Shown: piece by piece, positions 21,001 to 44,183 of the stretch
Position numbering within the stretch: position 1 is the first letter of the stretch
Layout of the letters: every line of letters begins with the position of its first letter
Source of the DNA: Candidatus Nomurabacteria bacterium
GTDB lineage: Bacteria; Patescibacteriota; Minisyncoccia; Phycocordibacterales; UBA918
Direction of reading: 5' to 3'
Length of the DNA: 64,000 bases
NCBI GenBank assembly: GCA_023898565.1
Contig: CP060228.1
Span: 776,930 to 840,929 of the forward strand
Program-made: the position numbers and the translations under genes
Notes under the pieces: generated by a model
Seen by the model: the letters and a program-made list of their open reading frames with translations, nothing else
Told to the model about the DNA's origin: nothing
The model's database searches: none

Positions 21001-21773
21001 CACAGCTTGGCAGTATCAATCTTAATGACGGAGCAGATATCGTGCTTACTCCGGGAACGACGACTACTATCATGGCGTCTACTACGGTCACTGACTACAA
21101 CGGATATGGCGATTTGTTTGCGGCCACGACAACCTTCTACAAGAGCACTGTCTCAGCTGCTTGTACACCAGACAATAACAATTGTTACGTAGCTAGCGGT
21201 GCAGCTTGTTCGTTTACGAACTGTTCTGGCGCTACCTGTACGCTCACCTGTAGCGCGGATTTTGAATTCCATGCTGATGCGACCGATAATGACGGTGGGC
21301 AATTCTGGTATGCTTTTATGGAGGTCTCTGATCAGGGTGGTGCAACTGACTTTGACACATCACTTGGTGTGGACGTACTGACTATTCGTGCGCTCGAGGT
21401 TTTGAATAGCATCAACTATGGTTCAATTGGTATTAACGAAAATACTGGTACCTATAACCCGACAGTGACTATTGAAAACTTTGGAAACGAAGCGATTGAC
21501 GTGCAAGTAGCGGGAACCAGTATGACTGATGGTGCCGCTTCTACCATTCCTGCCTCACAGCAACGCTTCGCTACTTCAACGTTTGATTACGATGTGTGTA
21601 CTGAGTGTCAGACGCTTTCAGAATTGGGCACCAATCTAGAAGTTGATCTCTCAAAACCAACCACGACAACACCAGCAACTACGGATGAGATTTATTGGGG
21701 CATTGAAGTGCCGTTTGGTATCGCAAGTAACCCGCACAACGGCGTAAACACCTTCACGGCGATTTCAGATTAA
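1..21773 (+). CDS. Giant secreted/surface protein (>7,250 aa), 5'-truncated at the window edge. It contains repeated DUF2341-like and LamG units, FN3 domains, CarboxypepD_reg-like domains, beta-helix-like repeats and a conserved C-terminal domain
   Basis: The open frame runs 21.7 kb without a stop and continues upstream of nt 1. The motif 'NFPVYVDLS...DG.DIRVT..DG.TELP.E...ID....TGELHF' recurs, and LamG-type 'LDELRFATTTRS' follows each copy. 'YWWRVRA.DP.G' indicates FN3 domains. G/T/S-rich repeats resemble a parallel beta-helix. Coding status is near certain; the domain names are recalled from memory and not verified by search. Confidence 0.9.
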   Translation, partial: AEDDFALQTYFPKGVGEVKSLEVFNQNKERDAVIPEYHPYVYHCEAGWEYAGEFAPGTLQDLSKQLSVELPTMPSAPGDASSTSSSTSDAVSEIPTEAVATSSSFDEVVDAEATDLSTSSVLDILPEPTPAPLFQMSLLAGTNTSEVATSTELRASSAEDDFLTAGYACRESGLVRQCDELDGGNTSCRVNRVKVADHETIQYAPGWDAVATNDGVMPKPNMLRRLAQFVGFGPDRKDVPDEFEVRQHSADTYHIRPGETMYFKMELAFPAFSEGEYWIEAVGDSEYGLLDPFWSSDWSYRMPITIDNTNGTTDLTEYQVFLELDNSLTDFWTNVQSDGSDIRFAQQLSVNNFSNAGTAKNNWFDTSFGGRVPVTIPPLTVTSDQQNFPVYVDLSLFDAGFWSAVKTDGGDIRVTTSDGTELPIDVVEIDTTAETGELHFLADTLAANAANTFYVYYDKPSASGYAASDPFGSEAVWSGAGYQAVYHFSDDPTTIGNTLTDETGNGNNLIVTTSAQATTTGQMGTAYDFNGSAGYLSASSWTFDGGDPLVTTGLYKMSSSDNSAIWQWGTGAQPDDIEFRPWYTGADTNGSGLHYFGATGGATYSFARATSSWHAFGTIGTTSASDNNLVYEDGVLVETVAQTVGNPTNTDGNGFSVGRTGTNGWWDGLLDELRIATTTRTEDRVKWETVNLSEPTHFYAVSSSQVPDNAANLNWYSTSWERRAKFTIPQGKVESNLTDFPVYVDLAMFGPDFFAAVQNDGADIRVTTGDGVTELPIELVAIDTGAKTGELYFKTDLYRNAANDFYVYYQNEDAIAYARTNTYGSNNVWTNGYLAVYHLEEDMAGVSNLNVYQDSTANQYHGDDYNTSNDKTGLFGKGQEFGDDQNDYLSLPNTVLDGVGDLTTSWWMSTVNGGAQGIVSGAMDNTGAGANEYIVWFNSSTNFQIYYQNAAESFGLSDTITNIDTGNWNYFVSTAEDAIDEVNFYVNGVGDTENPDPQPIAPLTIANGGLVVGQEQDALGGGFQTTQNFEGQLDELRFADVVRDADWVATEYANMGDVTTFIATTTAEELNITDFVELDFWLQHFDSTADEADIWLQVADLPAGEETVIYMYYGATGASSASDELATFSYSTSTDLYYVVDNSGATSISVQSLIDNNQVSIDGGAPVILHQGERTTFGTFTAASVISALGPISGTVTGSGNDGGDTIVPVSFASTTMVVPTNRANESWYLYSPFASTTVRSYIANSGTANQTINIATSSAATITTNPGTNQGVVFESTSPVLLTQRSNTPGDGVVAYPPTLRDLYGVYSNTIYISTVTDNPNPLVTCSGGGSGTVSGITRGEAQSETVCSNGSEGAGNAVRYRSQTYPIVAIQQADSDGNESTVFWPQHEFGTRYYMTNDSAYAAIVCSPRFGDVNLEVHDTVGGLVESATCSPAGNNPGKAYFTNGTGNGDSINFTAGHEIISTNGKPFYVIYEDVAVDQDEKNILGSVQGRKFDGAADRAITFGAEEPATTITYDDNHEQLSYAWYENTTSQTPTVRWPIGPTEDAEEGVAISGSGAVDEGDVLRLRLNLAVSSATTTAQSSAFSLQYAAAAGVGQCSAAAGWTDIGGVGSTTALFSGHDNAVLEDGTTLASTTLSQTTVAGTYEERNYSDFNPYEIGVGEVAEWDWALEVGAVDINTTYCFRMIRATGEELTTYTAYPELITVGPPNVPTNLTYFDNEHTTDLTPVLEFVAVDLAGDDIQYQVQVDDDPAFASIDIDRNSTDHFLNFENVTNPPDKAPFTSGDLIRFTSPTGLASSTTYWWRVRASDPDGSATTSDWSTPTSFTTNQNLETSEWFQTTGAQFDTNSLSSLTTAAGSVSVSGILGTMVGTSVDFDDAVVGNAWAEVDWNDTETSGEIRVQVEYKNGGSWQLIPDSLIPSNSTGISTAPINLRELDTDTYNELRLVATFDGSTLSLQDWTIRWGLRVETPVLGDLFDNQKTVDTLPIFDFISSDPQGDDLEYEISFSTDKTFVTGSSTYNSGSDAGFANLSNGGDTTPFTSGDTVTYTTQPGSPFTNGVTYWWRARAKDPNGDDSWSPWSQPDSFTVDTGLSVSTWFQTTRGQFEEGELTGTIATTSGSVVVNDLVGEYGKTTVTNGTWTTVNLQSEYNTPVVVASGRYTPLGDTQRSIRVRNKTTTSFEVLADNFDSSVGGTTVVDYLVMEAGVWNIDDGGTGTQVIAGTYEDVSDVQANTYAAAGYGADVTFSPAFSSPPAVIATVSSDNDSTWVTAHLNDGNTRNNPPTASAMGLYLGRGFESAVHDPEDIDYIAFETGHGVNNGAEFDADFSTDNHDEPPVSAEAFTSAFSSAPQVVIVMQAAEQGGNGGYAGLYAATPPTTSNYYPFIDEDGTGADRNHTTEPVLTLAFEDVSGVLKRYAGPGLSGTIAGENIIFSDGAGPKYDNFSWNDSTPGGSDILYQIEYEVSPGVYALVPNTAIPGNSAGTSTSPIDLTSVDINTYPVIRPFATLTCSGGTCPQINDWQLEWSEGVNMSGTLKEYDRLTGVATGTIRVAVDGSIIPSTGTVSGGIWSVANVTAFAGEIVTVWVDGATESEEAVAAFVYDGTGDITGVELFEQHLSISADEEAVVTNALLGQNDNLALGDEDIFYNVDGSNNLVVCSAGSCSDANIYVGPGNTYTPASAGGVSVSTHDVINDGFLELDTNTINVSGSWTNNATTSVDTSTINLTAATGTESVYSGENPMQFYNLSFGSGAGEALFTLAAGLDLAGSLTVASGTLDRSDYAISIAGNLTTGTGGFWQGTGTTTFDGAGAKTWRDDNLLTQKVGDVLIDGASTNVTALTNVAAYDITIGANDRLNGTSGKVIYVAGDWINNGTFTAQSSRVEIIEDDRTYPPAVPGSQNWYSDSAFDKRIMIAVNPAEVSADLVNFPLYVDLSTLGTNFWSAVASNGRDIRVTSGDGQTELPHDLVSINTTAKTGELHFLADAVDSATTTYFFVYFDNPAASAYYPTDTYGSQAVWAEYEAVYHFSDSSVAVDSYALDATANERHLLIEGAALATSTGRLGQGINLIGSTGILRNAGFTWTAGNPLVTSGWYKMPASSNESLWQWGTGASPDNLEFRPWYNTTGGLHYFGVTSGATYTLTPRDTVNWLHFTTVGATTTGQDNLVYQNAIEVERVTQTVANPYNDAATGLQVGRNGTGGSLQAQIDEFRITTSPRSAGWVQAEYSNQKTPKIFYATTSVQTYTPDLVLDEATHNIKMGGSTFYDLTIDDATTSAAFIDTAVTVSRNFVVVNGDVTLPTTRLTVGGSFTNTGYFQHNNAEVRFTSNSPASITLNGTEFYNSFYNVTFSGNGTFTFLDTNATTTNDMSITKGTVVFPSGKLTIGGHLSVTGTGIFNANNGTVEFISEDNESITTRGSSFNNVVFGVNEGGDGWYSADWSERAAIRVASTSVAGYIANFPVYVDLSMLGASFWGGVATDGRDIRVTSADGKTELPVEIAEISYGAQTGELHFLAPALSPISDTTFYIYFDNTDATEPDAASQYGSEAVWAEYEAVYHFNGDPVEGVADVSGNGRDLAPTVGTPSTTAGVLGTALDTTSSNVMLEDADWTWTAGEDLVSSGLYFMTGFDTGALWEFGSSCATDDCLAFMPWYDNATRGYHRFGETSGNDYNFTRDNSKWHHFTTNGRATNGEAVRIFEDGILRGSYLQTGTGENPSQTGLQIGRYVTNTYMDIDIDELRFATTTRSQQWIVTEYNNLTDVDTFYSTSTESYLDVVSSFTLNEALTDVHGDVTIYYADLVAPTNNFTIGGSALNVGGSYNPNNATTTFDSTDAGETVAFGDGAFYNLSFNGAGGGWTIATTTVLNNASLVTGADFTLAPNTTMSVAGTFQNSFNSAATTWTGSTLVLTGGDYTVTDRLDSGDTYAKLVVSGDSDLVMWNSSASTSTVLDTSSLYMPAFAGTPGLLRIYGAYERTAGTEHWSYDTDFDGTDLTGGGERPATVEIGRGSSIYLATSTTLSVQGAAGATTTVSAISGIYSLNVNAGTADIAYASFQNVGPKGLYLTNGTVLSSLTATEFSIAGGRSGITVDAATVNAQPSTEYTNVTFGTSSANSVYEPAWTDQVVITLQSSVIPGDLSNYPVYVDLSTLGSSFWSGVQSDGRDIRVTTDNGTKLPIDLVEIDASAQTGELHFLASSISSNNDTSFYIHFGNPAATAYAADDTYGANAVWTDYEAVYHFNEDPTVQITDMTGNGRNLYATVGTPATTTGLIGTALDTTASNVRLENVGWTWQAGDDLVSSGLYFMSGNDTGALWQFGTGNGADNGTYLSFMPWYNTATRGYNRFGVTSGSDYDFARNSTIWHHFTTNGRATAGESIDIYEDNLLQDSVTQLGSSENPTNTGLRIGAYQSTTYMDIDVDELRFSTDPRSIDWIDVEYRNFTDPTSLYATSTALTDSFNVSVIGVPTTFWLFSAGTGNRYGEAFDNDDGDPGSIQWDDSNFSITISGVVYNDDGTTPATAPLCNASTEVVTVVLDGVDTYTAACDPRDGSFEVTGIVYTGEPEIVTYISSSAATPQTNVAIYDETTGTGTVSGGVMTVARPNVIDGSVLVLIAGKDDDPTIMAAGGWTQIDVLGNTTGDQIDTGAWYRVVADAGTEAATYDFPADNGEGYSYWMGTLINVDTSTPIDVASTWSKLQNQYDPAAPSITTVTDGALVLGAWYTYRDTEMITPVYGWSDRGKNIVGPETNNLSVSSKSMLTQGATGAATTSGIISSRETHVAQFAFRPASAPTATSSIVAAAVTKTPLGNTGLPYDTITLRDQTSAYGTAAAAANIVVTRPEIENGDVMVLIVGKEDDFNITPPAGWVLGDERIEATGNDMYTAIWYRVVGNAGAEPSTYDFVNNDTTTEEYSYWIGSFSGVDTNNVFDVTPAWSNLQNDSSPAAPAVTTASDGAYVLATWYVIDDGAMDMPGSPWITLAQDVVTNNRLLAVAGRYMATNGNTGAAVMTGGSTDDVNVGQFALRPAALSVADTVADMDLYQNRVIVRHEDISPLSIADMAIFDNDDAFDLPFTATIGATDLLTVLPGSGLFVWSNRTFAPAGEVILAGSGATAADGSLTIGAGATLQANAADGVTIGGSLHLASGAVFQGATSLIDFTATNGGQTITSAASSTITLHDVSFTGVGGAWAVQTPLVSETDILVSTGTVSGVANITVNDGSFYGDGTVSLTGGTALLKKTNTLGGARAWTFNNLTLGSGGVAGVTTPASSATTTVRGVLTIASAHFLDALGSTFDLQGSGNVLVESGTLLEGTSTFRYSGLTPNILRTPYYNLKIDTDSGLSVTANAPTVGLQILGNLTVGASGTSTLNVNTNDPALAVTNNVYIGTKGTVLGSNSALFSVAGSWDNDGVFTANGGSVEFVKTGGSATIAAGNSSFGTVSIAGTASYTMSESATTTGNLTLSTGSFTLAGGSTLAVGGIFSSQMSDAATTWAGTTLSLYGGQSYNINAKNRSETFDTVVVSGSTHPRVWNATSSAVVTTSGSSLYSRNHLGVIGDLYIFGDYVNSSFADYWSYAEDFDGAVLGSPRTANVLVEDNGSVLYTGGSLTVEGDASASTTIASQTGGTYDFTIGGSTDVLLDHYVVRDTTSAGLVFTGVPSVTDISNGDFEVAIADGTAMTVGGTVISANQAMNFTGIRFATTTAINAYNVTATGTSASAWRFVNVIGNLDGEAKDIDPAGDPGYVVWEDSAAIINISGTVYSDEGATPMGITVCDGITKSIELSIAGLTFASTTCGIGTGAYTFTGISYGLSDTLTVYINGEAEKAVTVTQDPVSSISGLDLYQNRVIVRHQSGAPLTIADMAAWDSDDDPDVLFDAETTGTDTLVLPADTKLIVWTGRTFAPNGDVTVSGGGAGASFDGTLELQTGATFTAANGETHTIGGSLIAGAGALFTPAQSSIVFTTDDAGRTIDTNNAGFYNLSLTGSGDWTVTDTTLTVANDYLQNAGAVTLPTATTTIGGAMTVSGGTFDANGGLLYFTAADAGNNVSFGGSDVATVRFNGAGGSWIMSDTNATATDSFTVSAGTVTLPTGNLVVGSDFVVTGAVNHSNGTVVLTASDAGNLITLSGSSLYSLDLTGTGDYTMTDASAAALGSVIVTNGELIAPSATLSIGGSFDATGGVFTHSSGTVLFNSADTGEFVDPGANDFYNVIFGSAAGGWTLFSATTTRNFALSSANSFTLASGESLTVEGVFSNAVGGTATTWANTQLILNSGTEYEIGAKTVATELYENLQIGANTDVSMWNSSAVAVTVSPTGSLYSQDHAAVNGSLYIYGDYHVATTTEYWSYATDFDGAALGGSPRAATVAISSGSTVHVDGGVLRLLGNAAGTTTVSNQGSGTFDFKVKNGTFNASSYSFRNLSALGLQFTGNASVPSLSYGDFEQAADSTVLISLASTTLNANASLLVTNTRFATGGFVSGANVSLDATTTNSWRFTGATGNLWGEAFDVDGSDDCSSVRWDDSQCLLTEQSAYRWRNDDGGEGAPAGTWFDSSWTDRKRIRVVNDDASSYADVAVKVPVDFEANMQTSFDDLRFTDASGTTTLSYWIETYNTGSDALVWVKVPSLAAAAVTEIYMYYGNGAASSLSDPSNVFTVAEDFEDNNITEYSGDITKFATAGTYAYGGGYGLDASPNQSAKATDGIARTDLTVAQGQIIRYMQYVDTTAGSGDEVCTLFAVQSPVTANQNYAVCLEQFGTDRVSLVKNAENTDSTGTLLSSKNMTLSTGWYEVMIDWQTNNDIDVSVFNSSGALQATTSATDSTYSSGGIGFTFWFQHGGWDSYVSWPRTATQPTVYVGAEQQQGGATWAAPQDTSVGGFNFGETARLRVGINNTGLPIESQQFRLEFAPKLTAPSCEAVSGGSFTAVPVAASCGSSAVCMAASASTTNADPTTDHLVIDAGNFLPGEMVVETSNQSTPFDVDQNRYTELEYAIALTINATSDSYCFRVTDGGSALDSYAIMPELTLAFDPQLGSINLNDGADIVLTPGTTTTIMASTTVTDYNGYGDLFAATTTFYKSTVSAACTPDNNNCYVASGAACSFTNCSGATCTLTCSADFEFHADATDNDGGQFWYAFMEVSDQGGATDFDTSLGVDVLTIRALEVLNSINYGSIGINENTGTYNPTVTIENFGNEAIDVQVAGTSMTDGAASTIPASQQRFATSTFDYDVCTECQTLSELGTNLEVDLSKPTTTTPATTDEIYWGIEVPFGIASNPHNGVNTFTAISD
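8770..13290 (+). repeat. Three tandem intragenic repeat units of about 1.6 to 2.0 kb (DUF2341-like plus LamG-like) inside the giant gene, with near-identical DNA stretches
   Basis: Units begin at about 8770, 10357 and 12390 (NFPLYVDLSTLG / NFPVYVDLSMLG / NYPVYVDLSTLG). The DNA around 9030 and 10615 is nearly identical ('gctgtctgggcggagtatgaagcggtgtatcacttta'). Confidence 0.8.
15062..17850 (+). repeat. Dispersed intragenic duplicate of about 400 nt ('DLYQNRVIVRH...RTFAP.G.V') at about 15062-15460 and about 17458-17850
   Basis: The peptide blocks DMDLYQNRVIVRHEDISPLSIADMA and GLDLYQNRVIVRHQSGAPLTIADMA are colinear for about 130 aa. Confidence 0.7.
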
Positions 21774-23349: not shown

Positions 23350-23350
23350 A

Positions 23351-26057: not shown

Positions 26058-27941
26058 ATGTCGTACAACCGAGAAGAGCTTCCGCGCTACGTGCGCACAG
26101 CAGGGAAGATAACGATCGTTACCGCCTTAGCTGGTTTATTAGTGTTTATGGTCGCATTTATGTTTGATGTGGGGACACAGGAATTCAATCGTGTGTCTGC
26201 ACAGACAGCTACTACGACTCTAACCGTGCTTAATACGCCGCCGCAATTTACCTTAAATGCACATGAGCAGACAGAGTCGTCAACCTCAACCCCGACCAAC
26301 TCTGGTGATCAGATTGTCTGGAACGCAATTGGAGAGGATAGTAACGGTGCACCGTATTTCTTGCTCATTTGCAGCACTAATGCGTCACCAACTGCCAATC
26401 AGGCAGCTGATGCTGGAAGTCTGGGAACAGCGCCGCCTGACTGTGGTGTAGGTGCGACGCAGTGGGCCGTTTCCACTAGTACGACAAGTGGGGCAGTAGC
26501 AACAGCTGCAACAACCACGACTGAAGCTGCGCCATTCGCAGAAATTCAAGAGTGGTACGCGTGGGTATGTGACGACGACCCATTCAATCCGCGATGTAAC
26601 AATATTCCAGTCCAGGGTTACAGCGCAACAAATTCATCTCCGTTCAACGTAAATAGTCGTCCTGTACTCACCGATTTCGGTAACGATGGACCAGCTGATC
26701 CTGGAGCTACTCTCGTATTCCACTCAACATCATCCGACCCGGATGTGGTTGGTGGGGAAGATGCAATCTATCTTGTGGTTTGTAGCTCAAACACTGACTA
26801 CAATGCCACACTCAACACTTGTCCAAACGATTTTATCGCTTCAACTACCATTACTATTTTGAGTGATGCTTCGGCAACCTACACATTGCCAGCAATCATT
26901 CGAGATGATACATACGCTGCCTATGGGTACATTGTGGATGAACACGGCCACGAAGCTACTGCTAACCCGCTTAACCAGGACTTTGATGTAAACAACGTTG
27001 CTCCGGTGGTATTGAGTGGAGACATTGATCTCAACGGTGGTTCTGATATCACGCTCACTATTCCAGCTGGTGAAACACCAAGTACGACACTTGATTTCAC
27101 CATTAGAGATGCTAATAGCTGTTTAACGGCAGCTTCAACTACTGATGAAATCGCTAGCTTCACCGTATCGATTTTCCGGTCTGGTGTCGGAACAACAACC
27201 TGTGATGGAAGCGCTGGTTCATATGATCCAAACAACTGTTATCCAAGCGGTGTGCCAACTGCAACCTGGAACCTTTCTTGTACTGCTACCACCACCTGTG
27301 CAAGTCCACTTCAGGACTACATGGATTACACGTGTGAATTCCCGCTCTGGTTTATTGCAGATCCTACCGACTCTGGTCCTGAAACACCAGCTGCACTTGC
27401 TGCACAAAATTGGTCAGCCGGTGTGTCTGGGACCGACGATGATGGTTTGACGGGTCCAATGTCAACGACCTCAAATCCTGTTGAATTAAATAGCTTTACT
27501 GCCATTGATATTGAAAGTGCCCAGATTGCCTATGGATCAATTGAGCCAGGAAGTGATTCTGGTACACTGTCTGCAACTTCATCGGCGCTCAATGTGGGAA
27601 ATACAGGCCTTGACCAGGAAGTCCGTGGAGATTCAATGTGTGGCACCTATAGTCCATCTACACCATGTAGCAATTCAGCTACTTCTACAATTCCTGACGA
27701 TCAGCAGAAGTTCGCCTCTACCTCGTTGTCATACGCAAGTGGGTTGGCTTTCGCGCTGTCTTCTACCACAAACCAGGAAGTAGAACTTAACATTCCAAAA
27801 ACAACAGGTACTTCAAGTGCCTCTTGGGAACAAGATTATACTTACTGGGGTATCGCAGTTCCGGTAGCGATTACTCTTGCCGGTAACTACCAAGGCCTTA
27901 ACACCTTTACTGCAGTGACTGCAGAAGCAATCGACTGGTAA
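26058..27941 (+). CDS. Secreted surface protein (627 aa) whose C-terminal domain of about 150 aa is homologous to the C-terminus of the giant protein (WxL-like?)
   Basis: It has an N-terminal signal/anchor. Its C-terminus 'DYTYWGIAVPVAITLAGNYQGLNTFTAVTAEAIDW' matches 'DEIYWGIEVPFGIASNPHNGVNTFTAISD' at the end of the giant ORF. Confidence 0.7.
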   Translation: MSYNREELPRYVRTAGKITIVTALAGLLVFMVAFMFDVGTQEFNRVSAQTATTTLTVLNTPPQFTLNAHEQTESSTSTPTNSGDQIVWNAIGEDSNGAPYFLLICSTNASPTANQAADAGSLGTAPPDCGVGATQWAVSTSTTSGAVATAATTTTEAAPFAEIQEWYAWVCDDDPFNPRCNNIPVQGYSATNSSPFNVNSRPVLTDFGNDGPADPGATLVFHSTSSDPDVVGGEDAIYLVVCSSNTDYNATLNTCPNDFIASTTITILSDASATYTLPAIIRDDTYAAYGYIVDEHGHEATANPLNQDFDVNNVAPVVLSGDIDLNGGSDITLTIPAGETPSTTLDFTIRDANSCLTAASTTDEIASFTVSIFRSGVGTTTCDGSAGSYDPNNCYPSGVPTATWNLSCTATTTCASPLQDYMDYTCEFPLWFIADPTDSGPETPAALAAQNWSAGVSGTDDDGLTGPMSTTSNPVELNSFTAIDIESAQIAYGSIEPGSDSGTLSATSSALNVGNTGLDQEVRGDSMCGTYSPSTPCSNSATSTIPDDQQKFASTSLSYASGLAFALSSTTNQEVELNIPKTTGTSSASWEQDYTYWGIAVPVAITLAGNYQGLNTFTAVTAEAIDW

Positions 27942-27964: not shown

Positions 27965-28005
27965 AGCAACAGCCACTGTTATCCAGCAGTGGCTGTTGCT
28001 TTTTA
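27965..28005 (+). terminator. Rho-independent terminator
   Basis: The 13-bp perfect stem GCAACAGCCACTG / CAGTGGCTGTTGC has loop TTATCCAG and is followed by TTTTT. Confidence 0.8.
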
Positions 28006-28037
28006 GGTACTTTTTATCGATAATATGTAGCATACAC

Positions 28038-28994
28038 ATGAATAGGGTTGTGCAAAATTTCGTGATGCTTGTTCTTTTTTTACCTGTGCTTTTTTTTAGC
28101 ATGGGTGCGCAGCATGTATTTGCTGGCTTTGGTATCACACCGCCGTATGTGCGAAATACAAGCCTAACTCGCAATTCAACGTACGAGCAGCAGATTCTTC
28201 TCGTTCGCAGTGACACGAATGTCGGGCAGATAGCTGAAATTTCTGTTGATGCTCCAGAAATTGAAAGTTGGATACAAATCGTTGAAGGTGAAGAAATTCA
28301 CATGCCCAAGGGTGCTCAAAAAGTGCCAATGACAGTGCGAGTTACAGTACCGTCTGACGCTGAATTTAAGGATTACGAGGGTGCCATTCGCATCCGTACA
28401 CTACCTGAAGATGGGAAGGTGTCACCGGGAGCTGTCAGTATTTCCCTCGGCGCACTGGTAGATATTAGTCTCTCTGTTATTGATAAACAAATCAAAGATT
28501 TTCGTGTTCGCAAAATTTCAGCGGCAGATTTAAACGAAGGACACAAAGTAGCCTGGCTCTATTTTCCGGGAAAAATTGATTTTGACATGATGATTGAGAA
28601 TACCGGTAACGTGGACATTGCACCGTCGAAAATTGAATTTAGAATTTTTGATAGAGCAGGTAAGGTGTTACTTGAAGAAACAAAAAACATCGGAAAGCTT
28701 GTAAAGGTTGCGCCGTATGGAACAGAGACAATTACCGCAGAGCTCCCGACTAGGCTTCCAGCCGGTAGTTATGTCGCTAGATACAGAATCTTCAATGGTG
28801 AGGACATTAAGCAGGAAGGAGACATTAGCTTAAATATCCTTGCGTACGGCACATTGCAGACAGCAGGTTTTGGTTTCATTGGTCTTTCTTTTGCTCACAA
28901 GATTTCAGTACTTCTTCCAATCTTCGCACTTGTTATTGCCGGTATTTACGCGTGGCAGTCACGACAAAAGGATAAAGTTCGTCGTCGCAGGTAA
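28038..28994 (+). CDS. CscA-like (DUF916/DUF3324-like) cell-surface protein with a signal peptide and a C-terminal TM anchor plus basic tail
   Basis: The signal peptide is followed by 'FGITPPYV...' and a 'DYEGAIRIRT' motif reminiscent of DUF916. The C-terminus is 'LLPIFALVIAGIYAWQSRQKDKVRRRR'. It is paralogous to the genes at 44196 and 45187. The family assignment is from memory. Confidence 0.55.
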   Translation: MNRVVQNFVMLVLFLPVLFFSMGAQHVFAGFGITPPYVRNTSLTRNSTYEQQILLVRSDTNVGQIAEISVDAPEIESWIQIVEGEEIHMPKGAQKVPMTVRVTVPSDAEFKDYEGAIRIRTLPEDGKVSPGAVSISLGALVDISLSVIDKQIKDFRVRKISAADLNEGHKVAWLYFPGKIDFDMMIENTGNVDIAPSKIEFRIFDRAGKVLLEETKNIGKLVKVAPYGTETITAELPTRLPAGSYVARYRIFNGEDIKQEGDISLNILAYGTLQTAGFGFIGLSFAHKISVLLPIFALVIAGIYAWQSRQKDKVRRRR

Positions 28995-31588: not shown

Positions 31589-31620
31589 TAAAATTGGCTT
31601 CAAGCTTGGAGTTAACAAAC

Positions 31621-31657: not shown

Positions 31658-31707
31658 CTTGTGTACAGAGCGGATTATTTGTAAATGAGGTTGCTATACT
31701 GTGTGTA

Positions 31708-37991: not shown

Positions 37992-40900
37992 ATGTTGTGG
38001 AGGAAACGCTTTTGGAGTCGGTGTATTGTTCCTGTGGCTGGATTGCTGCTGGCCTTAGTGTGGGTAGAAGCAATTCGCTTCGCTGTTCCACTTGACCGGC
38101 TGATTTCGGTATTTACCCTCGTCCAGGCGGCAGAGGTTACTATCGACAGTGCCGTAAGCACTACCCCCACTGAGCATCATATTTTGGGATCACAGACAGT
38201 TTTTGTGAGTGATCAGGTTGGCTATAAGTTTTATACTAACAGCAATGGTACTTGTGTGTACAACAAAACAAGCAATGGTGGCACGAGCTGGGGCACAGAA
38301 GTTACCTTCGATAGCCAGACCGACTGTTGGGGAGTAGTGGTTTGGTACGATCAGTGGACTGCCGGCGACACTGGGAATTACATCCATATCATCAGCGCAG
38401 ATAGCAGCAGCGACGTTGTTTGGTACAACCGTCTAGACACCACATCTGATACGCTGTTGCTCGGCTCAACTCCAGTAAATGTCTCATCAAACTCTGGTCA
38501 AACCGGCACACTTGCAACGGCTGCTAACAACCCAAGTATCACAAAGGCTACTAATGGCGTACTGTACATTGCCATTGCAGACAACACTGATAGTTATGTC
38601 GTTGAATGTTCTGCGAGTTGTGGCTCAGCAACCAGTTGGACAGAAACTGGCACAAACCCCATGGACCTGCAGCCAGACAAGTCACTCATCTTGCCGCTTG
38701 CAGACGGAGATATAATTCTCATTCAACGAGATCGGTCCGCAGATGATATGCGCAGCAAAATTTGGGATGATAGCGCCGGTACCTGGTCGGGCACTTGGAC
38801 GATAATCGATGCGAACGCTATTGAAAACAGCACCTACGATCCTTCTTTTGCCGCTATGGCAGATCCTGATTCGGGAGATATTTTTTTAGTGTATATAGAC
38901 AACGGGACAACGGGCGCGATTGGTGGAGGCAATGACAACATCAGAACGGCCAAATATTCAGGGGGTTCGTGGACCAATACTGCCAACGTGGTTACCAATA
39001 GCGCAATGGGTCTGACAAAACTCTCAATGGCGATGGATGGAAATAATTCTGAGATTTATGTTGCCTTTTCTGCGCGAGTCACTCCAGGCACGGCAAACAC
39101 AGCAAATATCTATTGGGCAACATCGACCGCTGCCATGAGTTCATGGGGGTCTGTGCAAGGCCCAGTCAACAGCACACCAGACGATATGTACGGAGTTGAT
39201 CTCAACAACTACAACAAGGAGCGCATTTATGTTTCATGGTATCAGCCAGCAATCGATGACATCTTAGGTGACACAATCGCGAACATTTCACCGATTACCG
39301 TTGTTAGTTCATTTGGTACTCAGAGTAGTGAAGTCAGGGCAAGTAGTACGGATACGTATATTGGTGGAGGCTTTGCAATCGTTGAAAATTCAGCTAGTCG
39401 AAATGTTACCGACATCATTATTTCGGAGAACGGCAGTGTTGATGCTGCAAATGCTCTAGACAACATTAAGCTCTACTACGACCTCGACACCAGCGCGCCG
39501 TACGATTGTGCGAGTGAATCATACAGCGGTACTGAAAGTCAGTTTGGTAGTACGGACACCAATGGCTTTTCCGGAGCAGATGGCGTTTCTGCTTTTACTG
39601 GCTCGGTCGGTATTTCTCCGACGACGGCAATGTGTGTGTATGTTGTCATGGACGTGCTTAAAGTAGCGGTAGACGGCAGTACACTGGATGTTGAGATTTC
39701 CAATCCAGCCACTGACGTGCTTGTGAGTGGAAGCGTGACGGCCGTGCCTCCGACTGCTCAGCAAATCGGCGGCACTACAAATATTGTTGACTCAGACTTA
39801 ACACAAACTCATTATCATTGGCGTAATGACGATAATATTGAACTGCTGGCAACTTCTCGAACGGGTGGTGCAGAGGACATTCCGCTGACAGCGCTGCAAA
39901 AAGAAACACCAGTACGTCTGCGTTTTGGGGTCTCCAACGAAGGGTCAACCACGACACTTCCAACAACATTGCGACTCGAATATGCAACCAATCCCTCAGT
40001 CTGCTCAGCTGCAACGGGGTGGACAGATATTGATGTGGTGGATGATGCTTGGAACTTGTATGATTCGACATACGTGGTAAACGGTACGGATACTACAGAT
40101 ATAAGCGTCGCCTCGGGAGGCGTAGACAATGAAAATAGTGTTTTCCTAACTCCAAACGGCGGACAGCTCGACACTTCCTCTGAAACAGGTTCGCTTGCTT
40201 TCTTGCCAACAAATTGGACGGAGGTTGAATATGCAATTGTTGCCTCAAGCTCTGCACAAGAGGGTGATGGCTACTGTTTTAGACTAACCAATGCAGGTGA
40301 ACCATTACCGCAATACAATACCTATCCATCGGCCGTCATTGCGGCAGATGTGCGCGTGCGTGCTACAAGTACCCAGATAGCTGCAGCCGACATACCAGCG
40401 GATAACGTGTACTTGGGTGGCGCATTTACTATTACGGAAAACAGCTCGGCGAGAACGGTGTCTGGAATCACAATCACTGAAAATGGCACTGTTGATGCTT
40501 CTGCTGGTCTGGCGAATATTCGTTTGTATTATGATCTCGACACCAGCGCGCCGTACGATTGTGCGAGTGAATCATACAGCGGTACTGAATTTCAGTATGG
40601 GGCAACCTCAAGCGCATTTAGTGCGGCAAATGGCACGTCCACTTTTAGTGATGCTGTTGGTATTACCACCACGCAAACGATGTGTGTGTACGTTGTGGCG
40701 GATGTTACAGAAACCGCTCAAAATGGAGAGAATATAAACATTTTACTTGCTTCACCCGCAACCGACATTGTGGTGTCAGGCGGGGGCACGGTCTCTCCAT
40801 CAACGCCGCTTGATATAAATGGCTCAACAACATTGGCGGGAGCAATCGTCACACAAACTGGATATCATTGGCGCTATGATGACGGTGACGAAACCTCCAG

Positions 40901-43900
40901 TGGTGCCACGTCGGCAACAGGGGGGGCAGAAAACACGGCGCTGGCTGATCTTGAGAACGGTAGCGCAATCAGGTTGCGTATGCAAATTTCTAATGAGGGA
41001 TCGACGACCTCTGTGCCTCGTCAATATGGGCTGGAATACGGAGTTAAAAGCACCACTTGTGATGCGATTAGTGTTTGGACGGACGTGGATGGCGGTGGGC
41101 TCATTTGGGCAATGAGTGATTCAAGCAATTTGACGCACGGCGCTGACACTACAGATGTTTCTGTTGGTTCAGGAGGTGTCAGTAACCCCGGTGGTAAAAC
41201 ATTTTTAACACCAAATGGAGGGGTGCGTGATATCTCATCATTTTCAGCTACTACCACACTTACGAATAGCCAATTTACAGAATTTGAGTACAGCATCACA
41301 ACGACAGAGGACACGCCATACGAGACTGATTTCTGTTTTCGTTTAACGCAAAATGGATCACCGCTATTGGCTTACACTCAGTACGCAGAACTCAATATTG
41401 AACCAAAGCGCGATTTTAAGATACAGCAGGGAGAATCAATTGTAAGTGGAACCGGTCTCACACTAACTGCGGGAGTCGACTACGAAGCACCAAGTTCTGC
41501 TTCTACTGCTTTTGTTCGGATTACAAATTCACACATGACTGGCGCAGGGCGCGATGCAGCAGGCGGTGCACAAAATGCAGACGACTACGGTGCGTACATC
41601 TCAAATCCAGCAAATCTTACAACGAGTTTTACCATCTCACGCGATACTGACTCAATCAATAATACCTATGTCGCTTGGGAAATTATCGAGTATGTCGGCG
41701 CGGCCGGCGGAGACAATGAAATTATTGTGAGAGACCAAAGCACGCTGAGTCTCGGTACTACCGCAAATACTGCCACTGGTTCCGCGGTGCCAACGGTCGC
41801 TGACGATGCGGATGTTGTGGTGTTCATTACTGGGCAGATGCATCATACCGGTAATCGAACTGAGACGTATTCCCACCAGTTCACATCAACGTGGAGCGCA
41901 GGTTCTGGTGAGCCAACGTTTGAGCGCGGAGATAATGGTGGTAATGCGGCAGAAGTGAGCTATGCGGTAGTAGAGTTTACTGGCCTCAATTGGAAAGTGC
42001 AGCGCACTGAGCACAATTACGCTGCCGCCGGAGTGACAGAAACTGAACCAATTACTGCAGTAAATAGTCTTGGACGAACATTTATACATGCACAAAAGCG
42101 ATACACAGCAGTTAGCGGCATTGGTAATGTGGGGCACGAAGTCTGGCTCTCGAGTATTGGAGCGGTTTCGTTTGAGGTCAACAATCTGGCAACAATCACA
42201 GGGGTGACACACACCTCCGTTGCCTGGATTATTGAAAATACTCAAACCGGAACTGGTGCCATGTCTGTGCAGCGTAGTTCTGGTAATACTACGGGTGGAA
42301 CGGAGCCTGTTCTTATTTCACTACCTATTTCTACGAGTCTCAACTCTGTAAATAATGCTTCTATCTTTGTCACGACAGACGTTAATCAAACGGGAGACAC
42401 GATGCCCCGACCAATTGCCGGTGCCTTCATCACATCAACTTCTACCTACCAGCTTTGGCGCAGTGAAGCCTCTGGCGGTGGTGTTTTGAGCTATCGTACG
42501 GAGATTGTGCAATGGCCGGCAGCTGACCTCGCCATTCGGCAAAACTATTACCGTCTGTATGCGGATAATGATGACCTTACCCCCTCCGATCCGTGGCCAA
42601 TTGGTGCGTACGACTTGGGTGAAAATGCTCCCATTACTGCTGTCGATGAGCCGCCGGCGGATGGTGGACATATTCGAGTACGTATGACGTTGCAAATTGC
42701 AAACGCAACACTGCCAAGTGGGTTCTTGACTACGAAACTACAATACGGTGAGCTAGAAACGACTTGTTCTGCTGTTTCTGTCTGGAGCGATGTGGGGGCA
42801 GCTGGAAGTGGTGCTATCTGGAGAGGATACGATGCTGCAGGAATAGTTGATGGCGCTTCTTTGTCTGGTAATCCACCGACTGGTGGTGATTTGCTTATCT
42901 CAGTGGCTGATCGAGCGGGTCGCTACACTGAAAGTAACCCTAGCTCTGCAAACCAGTATGCAACTTTGCGAACTGAGGATATTGAATATGATTGGCACAT
43001 TGAACACAACGGGGCTCCACAGCGTACAACGTATTGTTTTCGCATGGTTAAGGCGGATGATACTGAACTAGACGGATATTTTTATTACCCACAAATTCGC
43101 ACTGAAGGGTATAGTCCTGCAACGCAGAATTGGCGTTGGTATGATGACGAGACAAACGAAACCCCTTCGCTCGCACTTGCTGCCGAAAATGTTACGCCAA
43201 CCGGTCTGCCTGACCAGAATGAAATAAAACTTCGCATCAGCTTGACTGAGCTTAAGAATCTGTCGCAACTAAATGCCCGCTTCAAGTTGCAATATTCTGA
43301 GTCGCCAAACTTTGGCATTGCGTATGACTTGTCTGCGACCACATCGTGTACAGCCAGCTCCTTGTGGTGTTACGCTGACGGTGCAGGGGTCGATACTGCA
43401 CTCATCACTACAAGCGTGCTTAGTGACAGTGACGGCTGTGTCGCAGGGGTTGGTGATGGTTGTGGTACACATAACGAAGCAGGATACGCAGTAAATGGTT
43501 TTACCCATTATGGCAACAGAACGATTGAAAATGAGTTTACGATTAAATATAGCAGCGCCACGCGCAACTTCGGTAAAGTGTATTACTTTAGGTTATACGA
43601 CGTCACCAACGATGAGCCTGTCGCAGTGAATAATGGCTACACGATTCCCTCAATCGGAGTTGATCCAACATCACTCACGTTATCGGTTAACGGTGTCAAC
43701 AGCGGAACGTCTATCGCAGGAATCACAACTGACGTGACGACTACCGCAACGGGCGTGGATTTCGGCTCTTTGCCAGTCGGGAGCTCAGTAGCTGCGGCAC
43801 AGGATATTGATGTGAGCACCAATGCGACGGAAGGGTATCAACTACTTGTATTCAATACACAAGGATTATTAAATTCATACGGTGATGCAATCAATCCAAT

Positions 43901-44183
43901 AGCAAGTACTAATGCGGCCCCGCAGGGTTGGACAGCGGCTTGTGATGGTTCGACGGGTTGCTTTGGTTATCACACTACTGACGCCACTTTATGGGGAGGC
44001 TCAACCAGGTTTGCTCCGATAGACTCCTACGCACCATTAAGTACAAGTCCAGAAGAGATTATGTATAACTCAGCCTCGAGTAGCGAAAGTCACTCAATTA
44101 TTTATCGTGTGAGCGTTACTCCCGATCAACCAGCGGGCGACTATACGGCTGATTTGCAGTACATTGTGATTCCAGTCTTTTAA
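37992..44183 (+). CDS. Large surface protein (2,063 aa) with an N-terminal BNR/Asp-box beta-propeller, four copies of the 'WRxDDG...YCFR' domain, an internal tandem duplication of about 1 kb and a C-terminal WxL-like domain
   Basis: The N-terminus has a signal/TM. BNR motifs are 'SNGGTSWG' and 'SGGSWTN'. The WR...CFR repeats are 'YHWRNDDN...GYCFRLT', 'YHWRYDDGDE...DFCFRLT', '...TYCFRMV' and 'WRWYDDE...YYFRLY'. The C-terminus is 'GDYTADLQYIVIPVF'. Confidence 0.85.
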   Translation: MLWRKRFWSRCIVPVAGLLLALVWVEAIRFAVPLDRLISVFTLVQAAEVTIDSAVSTTPTEHHILGSQTVFVSDQVGYKFYTNSNGTCVYNKTSNGGTSWGTEVTFDSQTDCWGVVVWYDQWTAGDTGNYIHIISADSSSDVVWYNRLDTTSDTLLLGSTPVNVSSNSGQTGTLATAANNPSITKATNGVLYIAIADNTDSYVVECSASCGSATSWTETGTNPMDLQPDKSLILPLADGDIILIQRDRSADDMRSKIWDDSAGTWSGTWTIIDANAIENSTYDPSFAAMADPDSGDIFLVYIDNGTTGAIGGGNDNIRTAKYSGGSWTNTANVVTNSAMGLTKLSMAMDGNNSEIYVAFSARVTPGTANTANIYWATSTAAMSSWGSVQGPVNSTPDDMYGVDLNNYNKERIYVSWYQPAIDDILGDTIANISPITVVSSFGTQSSEVRASSTDTYIGGGFAIVENSASRNVTDIIISENGSVDAANALDNIKLYYDLDTSAPYDCASESYSGTESQFGSTDTNGFSGADGVSAFTGSVGISPTTAMCVYVVMDVLKVAVDGSTLDVEISNPATDVLVSGSVTAVPPTAQQIGGTTNIVDSDLTQTHYHWRNDDNIELLATSRTGGAEDIPLTALQKETPVRLRFGVSNEGSTTTLPTTLRLEYATNPSVCSAATGWTDIDVVDDAWNLYDSTYVVNGTDTTDISVASGGVDNENSVFLTPNGGQLDTSSETGSLAFLPTNWTEVEYAIVASSSAQEGDGYCFRLTNAGEPLPQYNTYPSAVIAADVRVRATSTQIAAADIPADNVYLGGAFTITENSSARTVSGITITENGTVDASAGLANIRLYYDLDTSAPYDCASESYSGTEFQYGATSSAFSAANGTSTFSDAVGITTTQTMCVYVVADVTETAQNGENINILLASPATDIVVSGGGTVSPSTPLDINGSTTLAGAIVTQTGYHWRYDDGDETSSGATSATGGAENTALADLENGSAIRLRMQISNEGSTTSVPRQYGLEYGVKSTTCDAISVWTDVDGGGLIWAMSDSSNLTHGADTTDVSVGSGGVSNPGGKTFLTPNGGVRDISSFSATTTLTNSQFTEFEYSITTTEDTPYETDFCFRLTQNGSPLLAYTQYAELNIEPKRDFKIQQGESIVSGTGLTLTAGVDYEAPSSASTAFVRITNSHMTGAGRDAAGGAQNADDYGAYISNPANLTTSFTISRDTDSINNTYVAWEIIEYVGAAGGDNEIIVRDQSTLSLGTTANTATGSAVPTVADDADVVVFITGQMHHTGNRTETYSHQFTSTWSAGSGEPTFERGDNGGNAAEVSYAVVEFTGLNWKVQRTEHNYAAAGVTETEPITAVNSLGRTFIHAQKRYTAVSGIGNVGHEVWLSSIGAVSFEVNNLATITGVTHTSVAWIIENTQTGTGAMSVQRSSGNTTGGTEPVLISLPISTSLNSVNNASIFVTTDVNQTGDTMPRPIAGAFITSTSTYQLWRSEASGGGVLSYRTEIVQWPAADLAIRQNYYRLYADNDDLTPSDPWPIGAYDLGENAPITAVDEPPADGGHIRVRMTLQIANATLPSGFLTTKLQYGELETTCSAVSVWSDVGAAGSGAIWRGYDAAGIVDGASLSGNPPTGGDLLISVADRAGRYTESNPSSANQYATLRTEDIEYDWHIEHNGAPQRTTYCFRMVKADDTELDGYFYYPQIRTEGYSPATQNWRWYDDETNETPSLALAAENVTPTGLPDQNEIKLRISLTELKNLSQLNARFKLQYSESPNFGIAYDLSATTSCTASSLWCYADGAGVDTALITTSVLSDSDGCVAGVGDGCGTHNEAGYAVNGFTHYGNRTIENEFTIKYSSATRNFGKVYYFRLYDVTNDEPVAVNNGYTIPSIGVDPTSLTLSVNGVNSGTSIAGITTDVTTTATGVDFGSLPVGSSVAAAQDIDVSTNATEGYQLLVFNTQGLLNSYGDAINPIASTNAAPQGWTAACDGSTGCFGYHTTDATLWGGSTRFAPIDSYAPLSTSPEEIMYNSASSSESHSIIYRVSVTPDQPAGDYTADLQYIVIPVF
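39363..41400 (+). repeat. Intragenic tandem duplication (2 units of about 1.05 kb) in the 2,063-aa gene, including a 54-bp identical stretch at 39483-39536 and 40536-40589
   Basis: 'ctcgacaccagcgcgccgtacgattgtgcgagtgaatcatacagcggtactgaa' occurs twice. The flanking peptides 'GGFAIVENSASRNVTDIIISENGSVDAANALDNIKLYYDLDTSAPYDCASESYSGTE' and 'GGAFTITENSSARTVSGITITENGTVDASAGLANIRLYYDLDTSAPYDCASESYSGTE' are colinear. Confidence 0.85.

What the first reader, a model, noticed from the sequence alone, without database searches (positions are those of the whole stretch)
21300..44183. Four proteins share a conserved C-terminal domain that may be a WxL-like cell-wall binding module
Four proteins end in colinear domains of about 150 aa: the giant protein (about 21300-21770), the 627-aa protein (about 27480-27938), the 385-aa protein (about 31000-31585) and the 2,063-aa protein (about 43640-44180). 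They form two subtypes, '...YWGI.VP....G.NTFTA...' and '...[HL]WG......DYTA.L.Y...PVF'. Each has a proximal aromatic-Trp motif and a distal 'Y-x-[AG]-x-L-x-[YW]-x-x-x-P' motif near the extreme C-terminus. This resembles the two WxL motifs of Gram-positive WxL surface proteins, with Tyr replacing Trp in the distal motif. A shared C-terminal module on otherwise unrelated surface proteins suggests a common anchoring or sorting mechanism.
Basis: partly seen in the sequence, partly recalled or inferred. Interest (0 to 1): 0.8.

Follow-up and report, generated by a model that had tools for sequence, protein, structure and literature searches.

The report
Pilin-like tails on giant CPR adhesins
Four surface proteins of an ultra-small (CPR) bacterium end in two different kinds of pilin-like domain, each always encoded beside a membrane-anchored chaperone related to the partner of Gram-positive WxL proteins, so the tails are probably handles for chaperone-assisted mounting on the cell surface rather than true WxL cell-wall binders.

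Summary
The four C-termini form two real homologous pairs: giant protein/627-aa protein (32% identity over 306 aa, E 5e-21) and 385-aa/2,063-aa protein (33% over 189 aa, E 2.6e-14). No significant similarity joins the pairs.

Type B (385-aa, 2,063-aa) is a distant branch of the CPR Pam-pilin C-terminal domain (NCBIfam NF058581, below cut-off). Type A (giant, 627-aa) is an unannotated ~300-aa two-domain Ig-like module.

None of the four, nor 24 relatives, matches Pfam WxL. Profile-profile comparison with 67 genuine WxL proteins is non-significant.

The WxL idea is not empty, however. Three neighbouring genes encode signal peptide + beta domains + C-terminal TM-helix proteins homologous to DUF916, the WxL-interacting protein (hhalign 97.5%, E 8e-12). 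The triads "large protein + (small protein) + chaperone" are strictly syntenic: 38/38 loci for type B and 6/6 for type A.

The most likely mechanism is beta-strand complementation by membrane-anchored chaperones, as in Pam pili, which mounts giant adhesins on fibres or on the cell surface. I class it as a new variant of a known kind, of moderate interest.

The parts
20799..21368 (+). Giant protein (ORF 21..21773, >7,250 aa, cut at the window start): type-A module, first (N-proximal) Ig-like domain
   Evidence: Type-A NTD HMM, domain E 2.9e-39, residues 6933-7120 of the frame starting at nt 3. BLASTP to the 627-aa protein E 4.9e-21.
21369..21770 (+). Giant protein: type-A C-terminal domain (…YWGIEVPFG…NGVNTFTAISD*)
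   Evidence: Type-A CTD HMM E 1.3e-39; translation. The upstream part of the protein carries DUF2341, Laminin_G_3 and pentaxin-like domains.
26058..27941 (+). 627-aa secreted protein. N-terminal hydrophobic segment (residues 14-41); type-A module = nt 26763-27479 (first domain) + 27480-27938 (C-terminal domain)
   Evidence: HMM hits 2.5e-91 and 1.6e-62. AF2 model of the last 307 aa has pLDDT 94.4 and shows two beta-sandwich domains. No Pfam or NCBIfam family.
27996..28994 (+). c332: DUF916-type chaperone-like protein (signal peptide, beta domains, C-terminal TM helix, basic tail), cognate to type A
   Evidence: Homologous to c576 (E 8e-7) and c338. Chaperone HMM E 1e-52. An orthologue follows the small type-A protein in 5/5 other loci.
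30431..31588 (+). 385-aa Pam-like pilin: signal peptide, nine-strand N-terminal sandwich (nt 30533-30985), conserved linker 'VTVTASVD…QFTFTVT' and type-B C-terminal domain (nt 30986-31585)
   Evidence: NCBIfam NF058581 E 0.0025, covering model positions 2-148 of 148. 19/24 relatives hit it, best 3.7e-11. AF2 pLDDT 94.4. Linker and CTD are more conserved than the NTD.
37992..44183 (+). 2,063-aa surface protein; type-B C-terminal domain at nt 43668-44180
   Evidence: Type-B HMM E 7e-40. NF058581 E 8.7e-6. Orthologues of ~2,050 aa precede the two chaperones in 38/38 loci.
44196..45212 (+). c338: DUF916-type chaperone-like protein with a C-terminal TM helix, cognate to type B
   Evidence: BLASTP to c576 E 5.7e-17; TM at residues 272-307. 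Chaperone HMM E 3e-76.
45151..46881 (+). c576: DUF916-type chaperone-like domain pair, two TM helices and a C-terminal LytR_C domain
   Evidence: Pfam PF06030 WxLIP_PGBD E 9.6e-4 and PF13399 E 2.3e-10. About 20% of orthologues carry precomputed PF06030. Family profile against Firmicutes DUF916: hhalign 97.5%, E 7.9e-12.
28997..30103 (+). 368-aa dockerin/Big_6/Cys-rich repeat protein that co-travels with type-A clusters
   Evidence: Pfam. Homologues sit at the same position in L074, L156 and L158.
31594..32778 (+). 394-aa cohesin-like protein with a C-terminal TM helix that co-travels with type-A clusters
   Evidence: BLASTP to the cohesin proteins p597 and p247. Homologue in L074, E 3e-25.

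Best explanation
The four C-termini are two distinct families of pilin-type, Ig-like assembly modules. Each is served by its own membrane-anchored chaperone of the DUF916 (WxLIP / PamC-PamD-like) family.

Type B (385-aa pilin and 2,063-aa protein) is a divergent Paceibacteria branch of the Pam-pilin C-terminal domain. Type A (giant protein and 627-aa protein) is an unannotated two-domain module.

Proposed mechanism:
1. The proteins are exported by Sec.
2. The C-terminal sandwich is incomplete or unstable on its own and is capped by a beta-strand from the chaperone (c332 for type A; c338 and c576 for type B).
3. The module then either stays docked on the membrane-anchored chaperone, or the chaperone strand is exchanged for a donor strand of a small subunit (the 385-aa pilin; stand-alone type-A proteins in other genomes).
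4. The large adhesins therefore end up at the distal end of a short fibre or tethered at the cell surface.

Shown: the two homologous pairs, the Pam-CTD relationship of type B, the DUF916 homology of the three neighbours, and the strict synteny. Inferred: strand complementation, polymerisation and tip position.
For: Type B as Pam-CTD:
- NF058581 hits with full model coverage: p2063 E 8.7e-6, p385 E 0.0025.
- 19/24 relatives hit it, best 3.7e-11; one relative hits PamT.
- The L073 pilin scores 36.4 bits and the L073 2,256-aa protein's C-terminus scores 31.1 bits.

Architecture of p385 matches PamA/PamB as described in bioRxiv 10.64898/2026.03.03.709456:
- Signal peptide, nine-strand N-terminal sandwich, linker, C-terminal domain (AF2 pLDDT 94.4).
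- Linker and CTD are more conserved than the NTD (0.63/0.62 against 0.49).
- The linker 'VTVTASVD' aligns with the CfaB donor strand in dsc-CfaE 2hb0 (E 0.007).

Chaperones:
- c332, c338 and c576 are mutually homologous. Each has a signal peptide and a C-terminal TM helix, as described for PamC/PamD.
- Their family profile matches Firmicutes DUF916 at 97.5% probability, E 7.9e-12.
- Supporting hits: Pfam PF06030 and reciprocal HMM hits of 1e-6 to 1e-10.
- AF2 work on WxLIP predicts that a DUF916 strand fills a gap in the WxL sandwich (PMC10599100).

Synteny:
- 38/38 metagenome loci >=12 kb have a ~2,050-aa type-B protein followed by two chaperones.
- Large type-A protein, small type-A protein, then chaperone in 5/5 further loci plus the window.

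Distribution: 2,123 representative proteins carry the type-B domain. It ends at the last residue in 148 of the 150 listed, and occurs on proteins of 183-2,611 aa.
Against: - All NF058581 scores are below NCBI's curated cut-off of 55 bits.
- No multimer model or solved Pam/WxL structure was available, so the open groove and strand insertion are not demonstrated for these proteins.
- In the 38 type-B triads no small pilin lies within 10 kb, so polymerisation may not be part of that module's function.
- The ~2,050-aa protein is conserved in length, unlike typical variable tip adhesins.
- No PamR or PamT equivalent was recognised in the window.
Confidence: 0.55

Rival explanations
1. The C-terminal domains are WxL-type, non-covalent peptidoglycan-binding anchors. 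The DUF916-type proteins stabilise them on the wall, as proposed for Firmicutes WxL clusters. This is not fully exclusive of the best explanation: WxL domains may themselves work by strand complementation.
For: - Same cluster logic as WxL clusters (large + small + DUF916/TM protein), with demonstrated DUF916 homology (PMC9772566, PMC10599100).
- The domain is always at the extreme C-terminus.
- There are weak, colinear local matches of the type-B profile to both WxL motif regions. 6/67 real sequences score above 5 bits against 10/670 shuffled; the top score is 11 bits.
- c576 carries a LytR_C domain, usually a cell-envelope-associated module.
Against: - No PF13731 hit at E<=1 in 4 + 24 proteins, against 1e-65 to 4e-70 for true WxL proteins.
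- hhalign probabilities of 0.06-3.2%, while the small-versus-large WxL control gives 99.4%.
- A WxL HMM finds nothing in the window or in 436 CPR relatives.
- The defining Trp residues and the D-x-R-GTxAG context are absent.
- The nearest characterised relative is a pilus subunit.
Confidence: 0.2
2. The modules are ordinary Ig-like spacer domains duplicated among paralogous surface proteins, with no shared sorting or anchoring role.
For: Fold searches return only generic Ig-like, MSCRAMM or integrin domains. Types A and B are not detectably related to each other.
Against: - The position is strictly at the extreme C-terminus in 148/150 family representatives.
- The modules also exist as stand-alone small proteins.
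- Synteny with a dedicated chaperone-like gene is invariant: 38/38 and 6/6.
Confidence: 0.07
3. The C-termini are recognition signals for a dedicated export or attachment machine encoded nearby (the MacB-type ABC transporter at 23325-25945, or a sortase).
For: An ABC ATPase/MacB permease pair sits between the giant gene and the 627-aa gene, and in the same order in L158. A sortase lies beside the L073 cluster.
Against: - All complete proteins have N-terminal Sec-type hydrophobic segments.
- The modules are 150-300-aa folded domains, not short signals.
- There is no LPXTG-like motif in any cluster protein.
- The ABC pair is absent from the type-A clusters L074 and L155-L157.
Confidence: 0.05

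Closest known systems
Pam pili of CPR bacteria (PamA/PamB pilins, PamC/PamD membrane-anchored chaperones; Ca. Mycosynbacter amalyticus; bioRxiv 10.64898/2026.03.03.709456; NCBIfam NF058581/NF058579)
   Same: - Type-B C-terminal domain matches the Pam pilin C model over its full length.
- p385 has the same plan: signal peptide, nine-strand sandwich, conserved linker, C-terminal Ig-like domain.
- Neighbouring two-domain proteins have a C-terminal TM helix.
- The host is a CPR bacterium.
   Different: - Scores are below the curated cut-off.
- The host is a Paceibacteria-type (Kaiserbacteria/Nomurabacteria) organism, not Saccharimonadia or Microgenomatia.
- The same domain is fused to ~2,000-aa proteins, which the preprint does not describe.
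- A second, unrelated-looking module (type A) uses a paralogous chaperone.
- No PamR or PamT was recognised, and there is no ATP-synthase neighbourhood.
WxL / csc clusters of Lactobacillales and Bacillales (small WxL + large WxL + WxLIP = DUF916-DUF3324-TM; PMC9772566, PMC10599100, PMC1534035)
   Same: - DUF916-domain homology of the membrane-anchored partner (97.5%).
- Triad logic of large protein with the module at its C-terminus, small protein and partner.
- Predicted strand insertion from the partner into the client domain.
   Different: - The client domains are not detectable WxL domains by HMM, profile or motif.
- The second (DUF3324) domain and the NQIDKxxxYFDLK motif are not recognisable (alignment).
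- There is no LPXTG protein.
- One partner is fused to LytR_C.
Classical chaperone-usher pili, especially two-domain tip adhesins (FimH, PapG, CfaE) and class 5 CFA/I fimbriae
   Same: - Adhesin part N-terminal, pilin-type Ig domain C-terminal.
- The p385 linker resembles the CfaB donor strand.
- CfaE and SafD appear among the fold hits.
   Different: - There is no outer membrane and no usher.
- The chaperones are membrane-anchored.
- The similarity is at generic Ig-fold level only.
MSCRAMM N2-N3 (DEv-IgG) adhesin domains of staphylococci
   Same: They are the top Foldseek hits for the p385 model (E 2e-7, two tandem Ig-like domains).
   Different: TM-scores are ~0.2, identity is 8-12%, and there is no LPXTG/sortase anchoring. 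The resemblance is that of tandem Ig-like sandwiches.

Membership tests
WxL domain (Pfam PF13731) | Significant match to the PF13731 profile | tested here: not met
   No hit at E<=1 for the four window proteins or for 24 type-B relatives. A WxL HMM built here finds nothing in the window. Control: 16/17 Firmicutes WxL proteins hit, best 3.9e-70.
WxL domain (Pfam PF13731) | Two Trp-x-Leu motifs on adjacent strands (~68 or ~106 residues apart), with Asp W1-8, Arg W1-6 and a GTxAG turn (PMC9772566) | tested here: not met
   In the best (non-significant) alignment, motif 1 falls on N-G-F-V-V-T-V and motif 2 on L-T-Y-V-A-T-P. There is no Trp and no D-x-R-GTxAG. Type A has neither motif.
WxL domain (Pfam PF13731) | Profile-profile similarity to genuine WxL alignments | tested here: not met
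   hhalign probability 0.06-3.2%. Control, small versus large WxL: 99.4%.
WxL domain (Pfam PF13731) | Domain at the extreme C-terminus of Sec-exported proteins | tested here: met
   The domain ends at the last residue in 148/150 family representatives.
WxL domain (Pfam PF13731) | Gene cluster with a small protein, a large protein and a DUF916-DUF3324-TM protein | tested here: met
   Architecture and DUF916 homology are met. The client domains themselves are not WxL.
WxL domain (Pfam PF13731) | Fold equivalent to WxL AlphaFold models; peptidoglycan binding | not testable with these tools
   The afdb50 library was unavailable. There is no WxL structure in the PDB searches. Binding needs an experiment.
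Pam pilin C-terminal domain (NCBIfam NF058581) | Score at or above the curated cut-off (55 bits) | tested here: not met
   p385 17.9 bits and p2063 25.9 bits. Relatives reach 31-36 bits, and the best E-value is 3.7e-11. Type A gives no hit.
Pam pilin C-terminal domain (NCBIfam NF058581) | Statistically significant, full-length alignment to the model | tested here: met
   Met for type B only: E 8.7e-6 (model positions 3-148 of 148) and 0.0025 (2-148 of 148), and 19/24 relatives.
Pam pilus system | Pilin plan: signal peptide, nine-strand N-terminal sandwich, conserved linker strand, C-terminal Ig-like domain | tested here: met
   p385 AF2 model has nine strands in residues 1-150, then the linker, then the CTD. 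Conservation is highest in the linker and CTD. p2063 has only the linker-like strand plus the CTD.
Pam pilus system | Operon-encoded two-domain chaperones with a C-terminal TM helix | tested here: met
   c332, c338 and c576. Direct homology to PamC/PamD could not be tested because no sequences or models were available.
Pam pilus system | PamT tip pilin and PamR (two FnIII domains + C-terminal TM) terminator | tested here: inconclusive
   No NF058579 hit in the window, though one relative hits it. The FN3 protein at 21778-23349 has its TM segment at the N-terminus.
Pam pilus system | Donor-strand exchange in an assembled filament | not testable with these tools
WxLIP (DUF916/PF06030 + DUF3324/PF11797 + TM) - for the three neighbouring proteins | DUF916 (PGBD) domain | tested here: met
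   hhalign 97.5%, E 7.9e-12 over 119 columns. PF06030 E 9.6e-4 for c576, below the 27.3-bit cut-off. PF06030 is precomputed for ~20% of orthologues.
WxLIP (DUF916/PF06030 + DUF3324/PF11797 + TM) - for the three neighbouring proteins | DUF3324 (HBD) second domain and the NQIDKxxxYFDLK motif | tested here: not met
   The second-domain profile against Firmicutes WxLIP gives probability 2.2%. The motif position reads 'SVSP…TLYEMSADP' in c576.
WxLIP (DUF916/PF06030 + DUF3324/PF11797 + TM) - for the three neighbouring proteins | Signal peptide and C-terminal transmembrane helix | tested here: met
   Hydropathy scan.

The most novel reading that the evidence does not exclude
The CPR Pam-type pilus and adhesin systems and the Firmicutes WxL/WxLIP (csc) clusters may be one ancient monoderm 'membrane-anchored chaperone + strand-complemented Ig domain' machinery. 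Under this reading, WxL domains, Pam C-terminal domains and the type-A module are divergent versions of the same client domain. WxL proteins would then be displayed, or even polymerised, by donor-strand complementation rather than simply sticking to peptidoglycan. The giant adhesins of Parcubacteria would be mounted in the same way.
Probability: 0.3. Interest if true: 0.8.

Novelty: new variant of a known kind. Interest (0 to 1): 0.55.

Why it matters
CPR bacteria live attached to host cells. How their giant surface proteins are held and presented is largely unknown.

This locus indicates that two families of C-terminal pilin-like modules, each with a dedicated DUF916-type membrane chaperone, are the handles by which proteins of >2,000 and >7,000 aa are deployed. 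The type-B triad is a conserved core feature of many Paceibacteria (38/38 loci).

It also gives a concrete, testable bridge between the newly described Pam pili and the long-puzzling WxL clusters of lactobacilli, enterococci and Listeria. The mechanism of those clusters (wall binding or strand complementation) is still unsettled.

All these proteins are currently 'hypothetical protein' in public records.

Tried and rejected
- **Pfam/NCBIfam on the four C-termini.** Only weak NF058581 hits for type B; nothing for type A.
- **Structural comparison with WxL models.** The afdb50 library is not installed.
- **PDB sequence-profile searches.** Only noise, apart from a marginal CfaE/CfaB match.
- **Enriching the type-B profile.** Adding 143 representatives from the 1.84-billion-protein search did not raise the hhalign score against WxL or type A.
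- **HMM of type B against WxL, with shuffled and reversed controls.** A slight, non-significant excess.
- **The search for related loci with the type-B alignment.** I used the chaperone alignment instead.
- **Rejected ideas.** T9SS-like or ABC-export signal, sortase/LPXTG anchoring (no motif), and a single four-member domain family.
- **Literature.** I found no paper linking DUF916/WxL to CPR.

Full report
**Source and layout.** Every gene in the region is on the + strand. Exact-sequence look-ups place the window on a 951,832-bp contig. It is labelled Candidatus Kaiserbacteria / Candidatus Nomurabacteria bacterium, that is, a Parcubacteria-type CPR organism. The proteins looked up (the 627-aa, 385-aa and 2,063-aa proteins and the 338-aa neighbour) are deposited as 'hypothetical protein'. 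The four proteins are:
- a giant ORF open to the window start (21..21773, >7,250 aa)
- a 627-aa protein (26058-27941)
- a 385-aa protein (30431-31588)
- a 2,063-aa protein (37992-44183)

**Checking the observation.** Two homologous pairs are real.
- The giant's last 300 aa against the 627-aa protein: 32% identity over 306 aa, E 4.9e-21.
- The 385-aa protein against the 2,063-aa C-terminus: 33% over 189 aa, E 2.6e-14.

Nothing links the pairs.
- There is no BLASTP hit between them.
- Family profiles built from 24 and 19 homologues align only over the last hairpin, with hhalign probability 1%.
- Domain-trimmed or enriched profiles reach 5-8%.

- The Trp of 'YWGI' in type A sits 27-33 residues from the end, in the penultimate strand. 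The Trp of 'HWG/LWG' in type B sits 63-83 residues from the end, in another strand.
- The distal Y-x-A-x-L-x-Y-x-x-x-P motif exists only in type B.
- The type-A unit is about 300 aa and has two domains. It also occurs as free-standing secreted proteins of ~305-320 aa.

An HMM scan of all six frames of the window finds each module only in its two known carriers.

**What type B is.**
- NCBIfam NF058581 ('CPR_Pam_pilin_C, Pam pilus system pilin subunit') matches the 2,063-aa C-terminus (E 8.7e-6) and the 385-aa protein (E 0.0025). Both matches cover the whole model and both lie below the 55-bit cut-off.
- Of 24 family members, 19 hit the model (best 3.7e-11) and one hits the PamT model. More distant relatives reach 31-36 bits.
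- The only paper using the term 'Pam pilus' is a 2026 preprint (bioRxiv 10.64898/2026.03.03.709456). It gives cryo-EM structures of PamA and PamB from Ca. Mycosynbacter amalyticus. Their plan is a signal peptide, a nine-strand N-terminal sandwich, a single linker strand and a truncated Ig-like C-terminal domain. That domain accepts the neighbour's linker by donor-strand exchange. PamC and PamD are chaperone-like proteins with a C-terminal TM helix.
- The AF2 model of the mature 385-aa protein (pLDDT 94.4) has exactly nine strands in residues 1-150. Next come an extended conserved segment 'VTVTASVD', a strand 'QFTFTVT' and a C-terminal sandwich.
- The linker and C-terminal domain are more conserved than the N-terminal domain, as the preprint reports for Pam pilins.
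- A PDB profile search finds only donor-strand-complemented CfaE (E 0.007), where the linker aligns with the CfaB donor strand 'NITVTASVDP'. This is suggestive but weak.
- An exhaustive HMMER search finds 2,123 representative proteins with the type-B domain. It ends at the last residue in 148 of the 150 listed. Most carriers are 340-400 aa, but some are 570-2,611 aa.

**The neighbours are the key.**
- Three genes, c332 (27996-28994), c338 (44196-45212) and c576 (45151-46881), are mutually homologous. Each has an N-terminal signal segment and a TM helix after ~290 residues.
- c576 gives a near-full-length but sub-threshold hit to Pfam PF06030 (WxLIP_PGBD = DUF916; E 9.6e-4) and also carries a C-terminal LytR_C domain.
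- About one fifth of its orthologues carry a precomputed PF06030 assignment, and NCBI names one of them 'DUF916 domain-containing protein'.

To test this properly I fetched 68 Firmicutes loci, using a DNA pattern for the WxLIP motif NQIDKxxxYFDLK. From them I harvested 65 DUF916 proteins and 67 WxL proteins. Pfam confirmed 16 of 17 sampled WxL proteins. The CPR chaperone profile matches the Firmicutes DUF916 profile with 97.5% probability, E 7.9e-12, over 119 columns. Reciprocal HMM searches give 1e-6 to 1e-10. The second (DUF3324) domain is not recognisably conserved.

**Synteny.**
- Type B: around c576 orthologues, all 38 metagenome loci of >=12 kb contain a ~2,050-aa protein ending in the type-B domain, followed by exactly two chaperone genes.
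- Type A: five further loci (L074, L155-L158) all show large type-A protein, small type-A protein, then c332-type chaperone. A dockerin protein and a cohesin-like/TM protein usually follow, as in the window.
- A distant type-B locus (L073) has a 2,256-aa DUF2341/Laminin_G protein with a Pam-like C-terminus, then chaperone, pilin, chaperone.

**Testing the WxL interpretation.**
- PF13731 does not hit any of the four proteins or the 24 relatives at E<=1.
- hhalign against the genuine WxL alignments gives 0.06-3.2% probability. The small-versus-large WxL control gives 99.4%.
- With a permissive alignment the type-B domain aligns colinearly with WxL:
  - IPFG with FG
  - TNAxNGFxVTV with TDxRGTxxGWxLxV
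  - AGDYTATLTYVATP with YTTTLTWTLxDxP
- HMM scores against real WxL sequences slightly exceed the shuffled controls (6/67 against 10/670 above 5 bits). This is below significance.
- A fold comparison with WxL models could not be run.
- The WxL literature states that every cluster has a small WxL, a large WxL with the domain at its C-terminus, and a DUF916-DUF3324-TM protein. AF2 predicts that a DUF916 hairpin strand fills a gap in the WxL sandwich (PMC9772566, PMC10599100).
- The system is therefore WxL-like in its partner protein and its logic, but the domains are not members of the WxL family by any test available here.

**Mechanism (inference).** After Sec export, each C-terminal module is probably capped by a strand from its cognate membrane-anchored chaperone. 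It is then either retained there or passed on by strand exchange to small subunits (p385, or the stand-alone type-A proteins). This would place the giant adhesins at the far end of a fibre or at the cell surface. My confidence is about 0.55. The main rival is true WxL-style wall binding (0.2), and the two are not mutually exclusive.

**Novelty.**
- Type B is a divergent member of a family first described in 2026.
- I found no description, in the papers I searched, of its fusion to conserved ~2,000-aa proteins, of type A, of paralogous chaperones serving the two modules, or of a DUF916 link between CPR Pam-like systems and WxL clusters.

Noticed in passing
window 45151-46881: c576 fuses the DUF916-type chaperone-like region, through two TM helices, to a C-terminal LytR_C domain (PF13399, E 2.3e-10). 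More than 100 Paceibacteria orthologues share this architecture. It may tie the chaperone to the cell wall.
   Followed up: partly
window 28997-30103, 31594-32778, 32744-34537, 35235-35978: A set of cohesin and dockerin proteins: a dockerin/Big_6/Cys-rich protein, two cohesin proteins with C-terminal TM helices, and one cohesin+dockerin protein. The set co-travels with type-A clusters in L074, L155, L156 and L158. This suggests a second, cohesin-dockerin-based surface tether in a CPR bacterium.
   Followed up: partly
window 21778-25945; L158:5029-9268: An FN3-repeat protein with an N-terminal TM segment and a MacB-type ABC ATPase/permease pair lie between the giant gene and the 627-aa gene. 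The order is the same in L158.
   Followed up: no
window 47391-47954: A ResA/DsbE-like extracytoplasmic thiol-disulfide oxidoreductase lies just downstream of the chaperones. This fits the conserved Cys pairs in the type-A module.
   Followed up: no
window 30986-31030 (p385 linker): The conserved 'VTVTASVD' segment aligns with the CfaB donor strand 'NITVTASVDP' of CFA/I fimbriae in PDB 2hb0 (profile E 0.007).
   Followed up: partly
window 26058-26215: The N-terminus of the 627-aa protein gives a weak TadE/G-like hit (PF13400, E 0.0037, residues 16-52).
   Followed up: no
window 37992-44183: The 2,063-aa protein contains two near-identical internal repeats around 'LYYDLDTSAPYDCASESYSGTE' and has no Pfam domain at all. 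Its orthologues keep a nearly constant length (~2,050 aa) in more than 25 metagenome loci.
   Followed up: partly
P0416 (2,611 aa): This protein has four stretches matching NCBIfam 'TafC family fimbrial protein' (E 1.6e-23) and ends in the type-B domain.
   Followed up: no
L073:13049-13714 (- strand): A sortase gene lies beside a distant type-B cluster. No LPXTG-like motif was found in the window's cluster proteins.
   Followed up: partly
window 36096-37949: A 617-aa protein has a long acidic, low-complexity N-terminal half and TolB-like beta-propeller repeats. It sits between the cohesin genes and the 2,063-aa gene.
   Followed up: no
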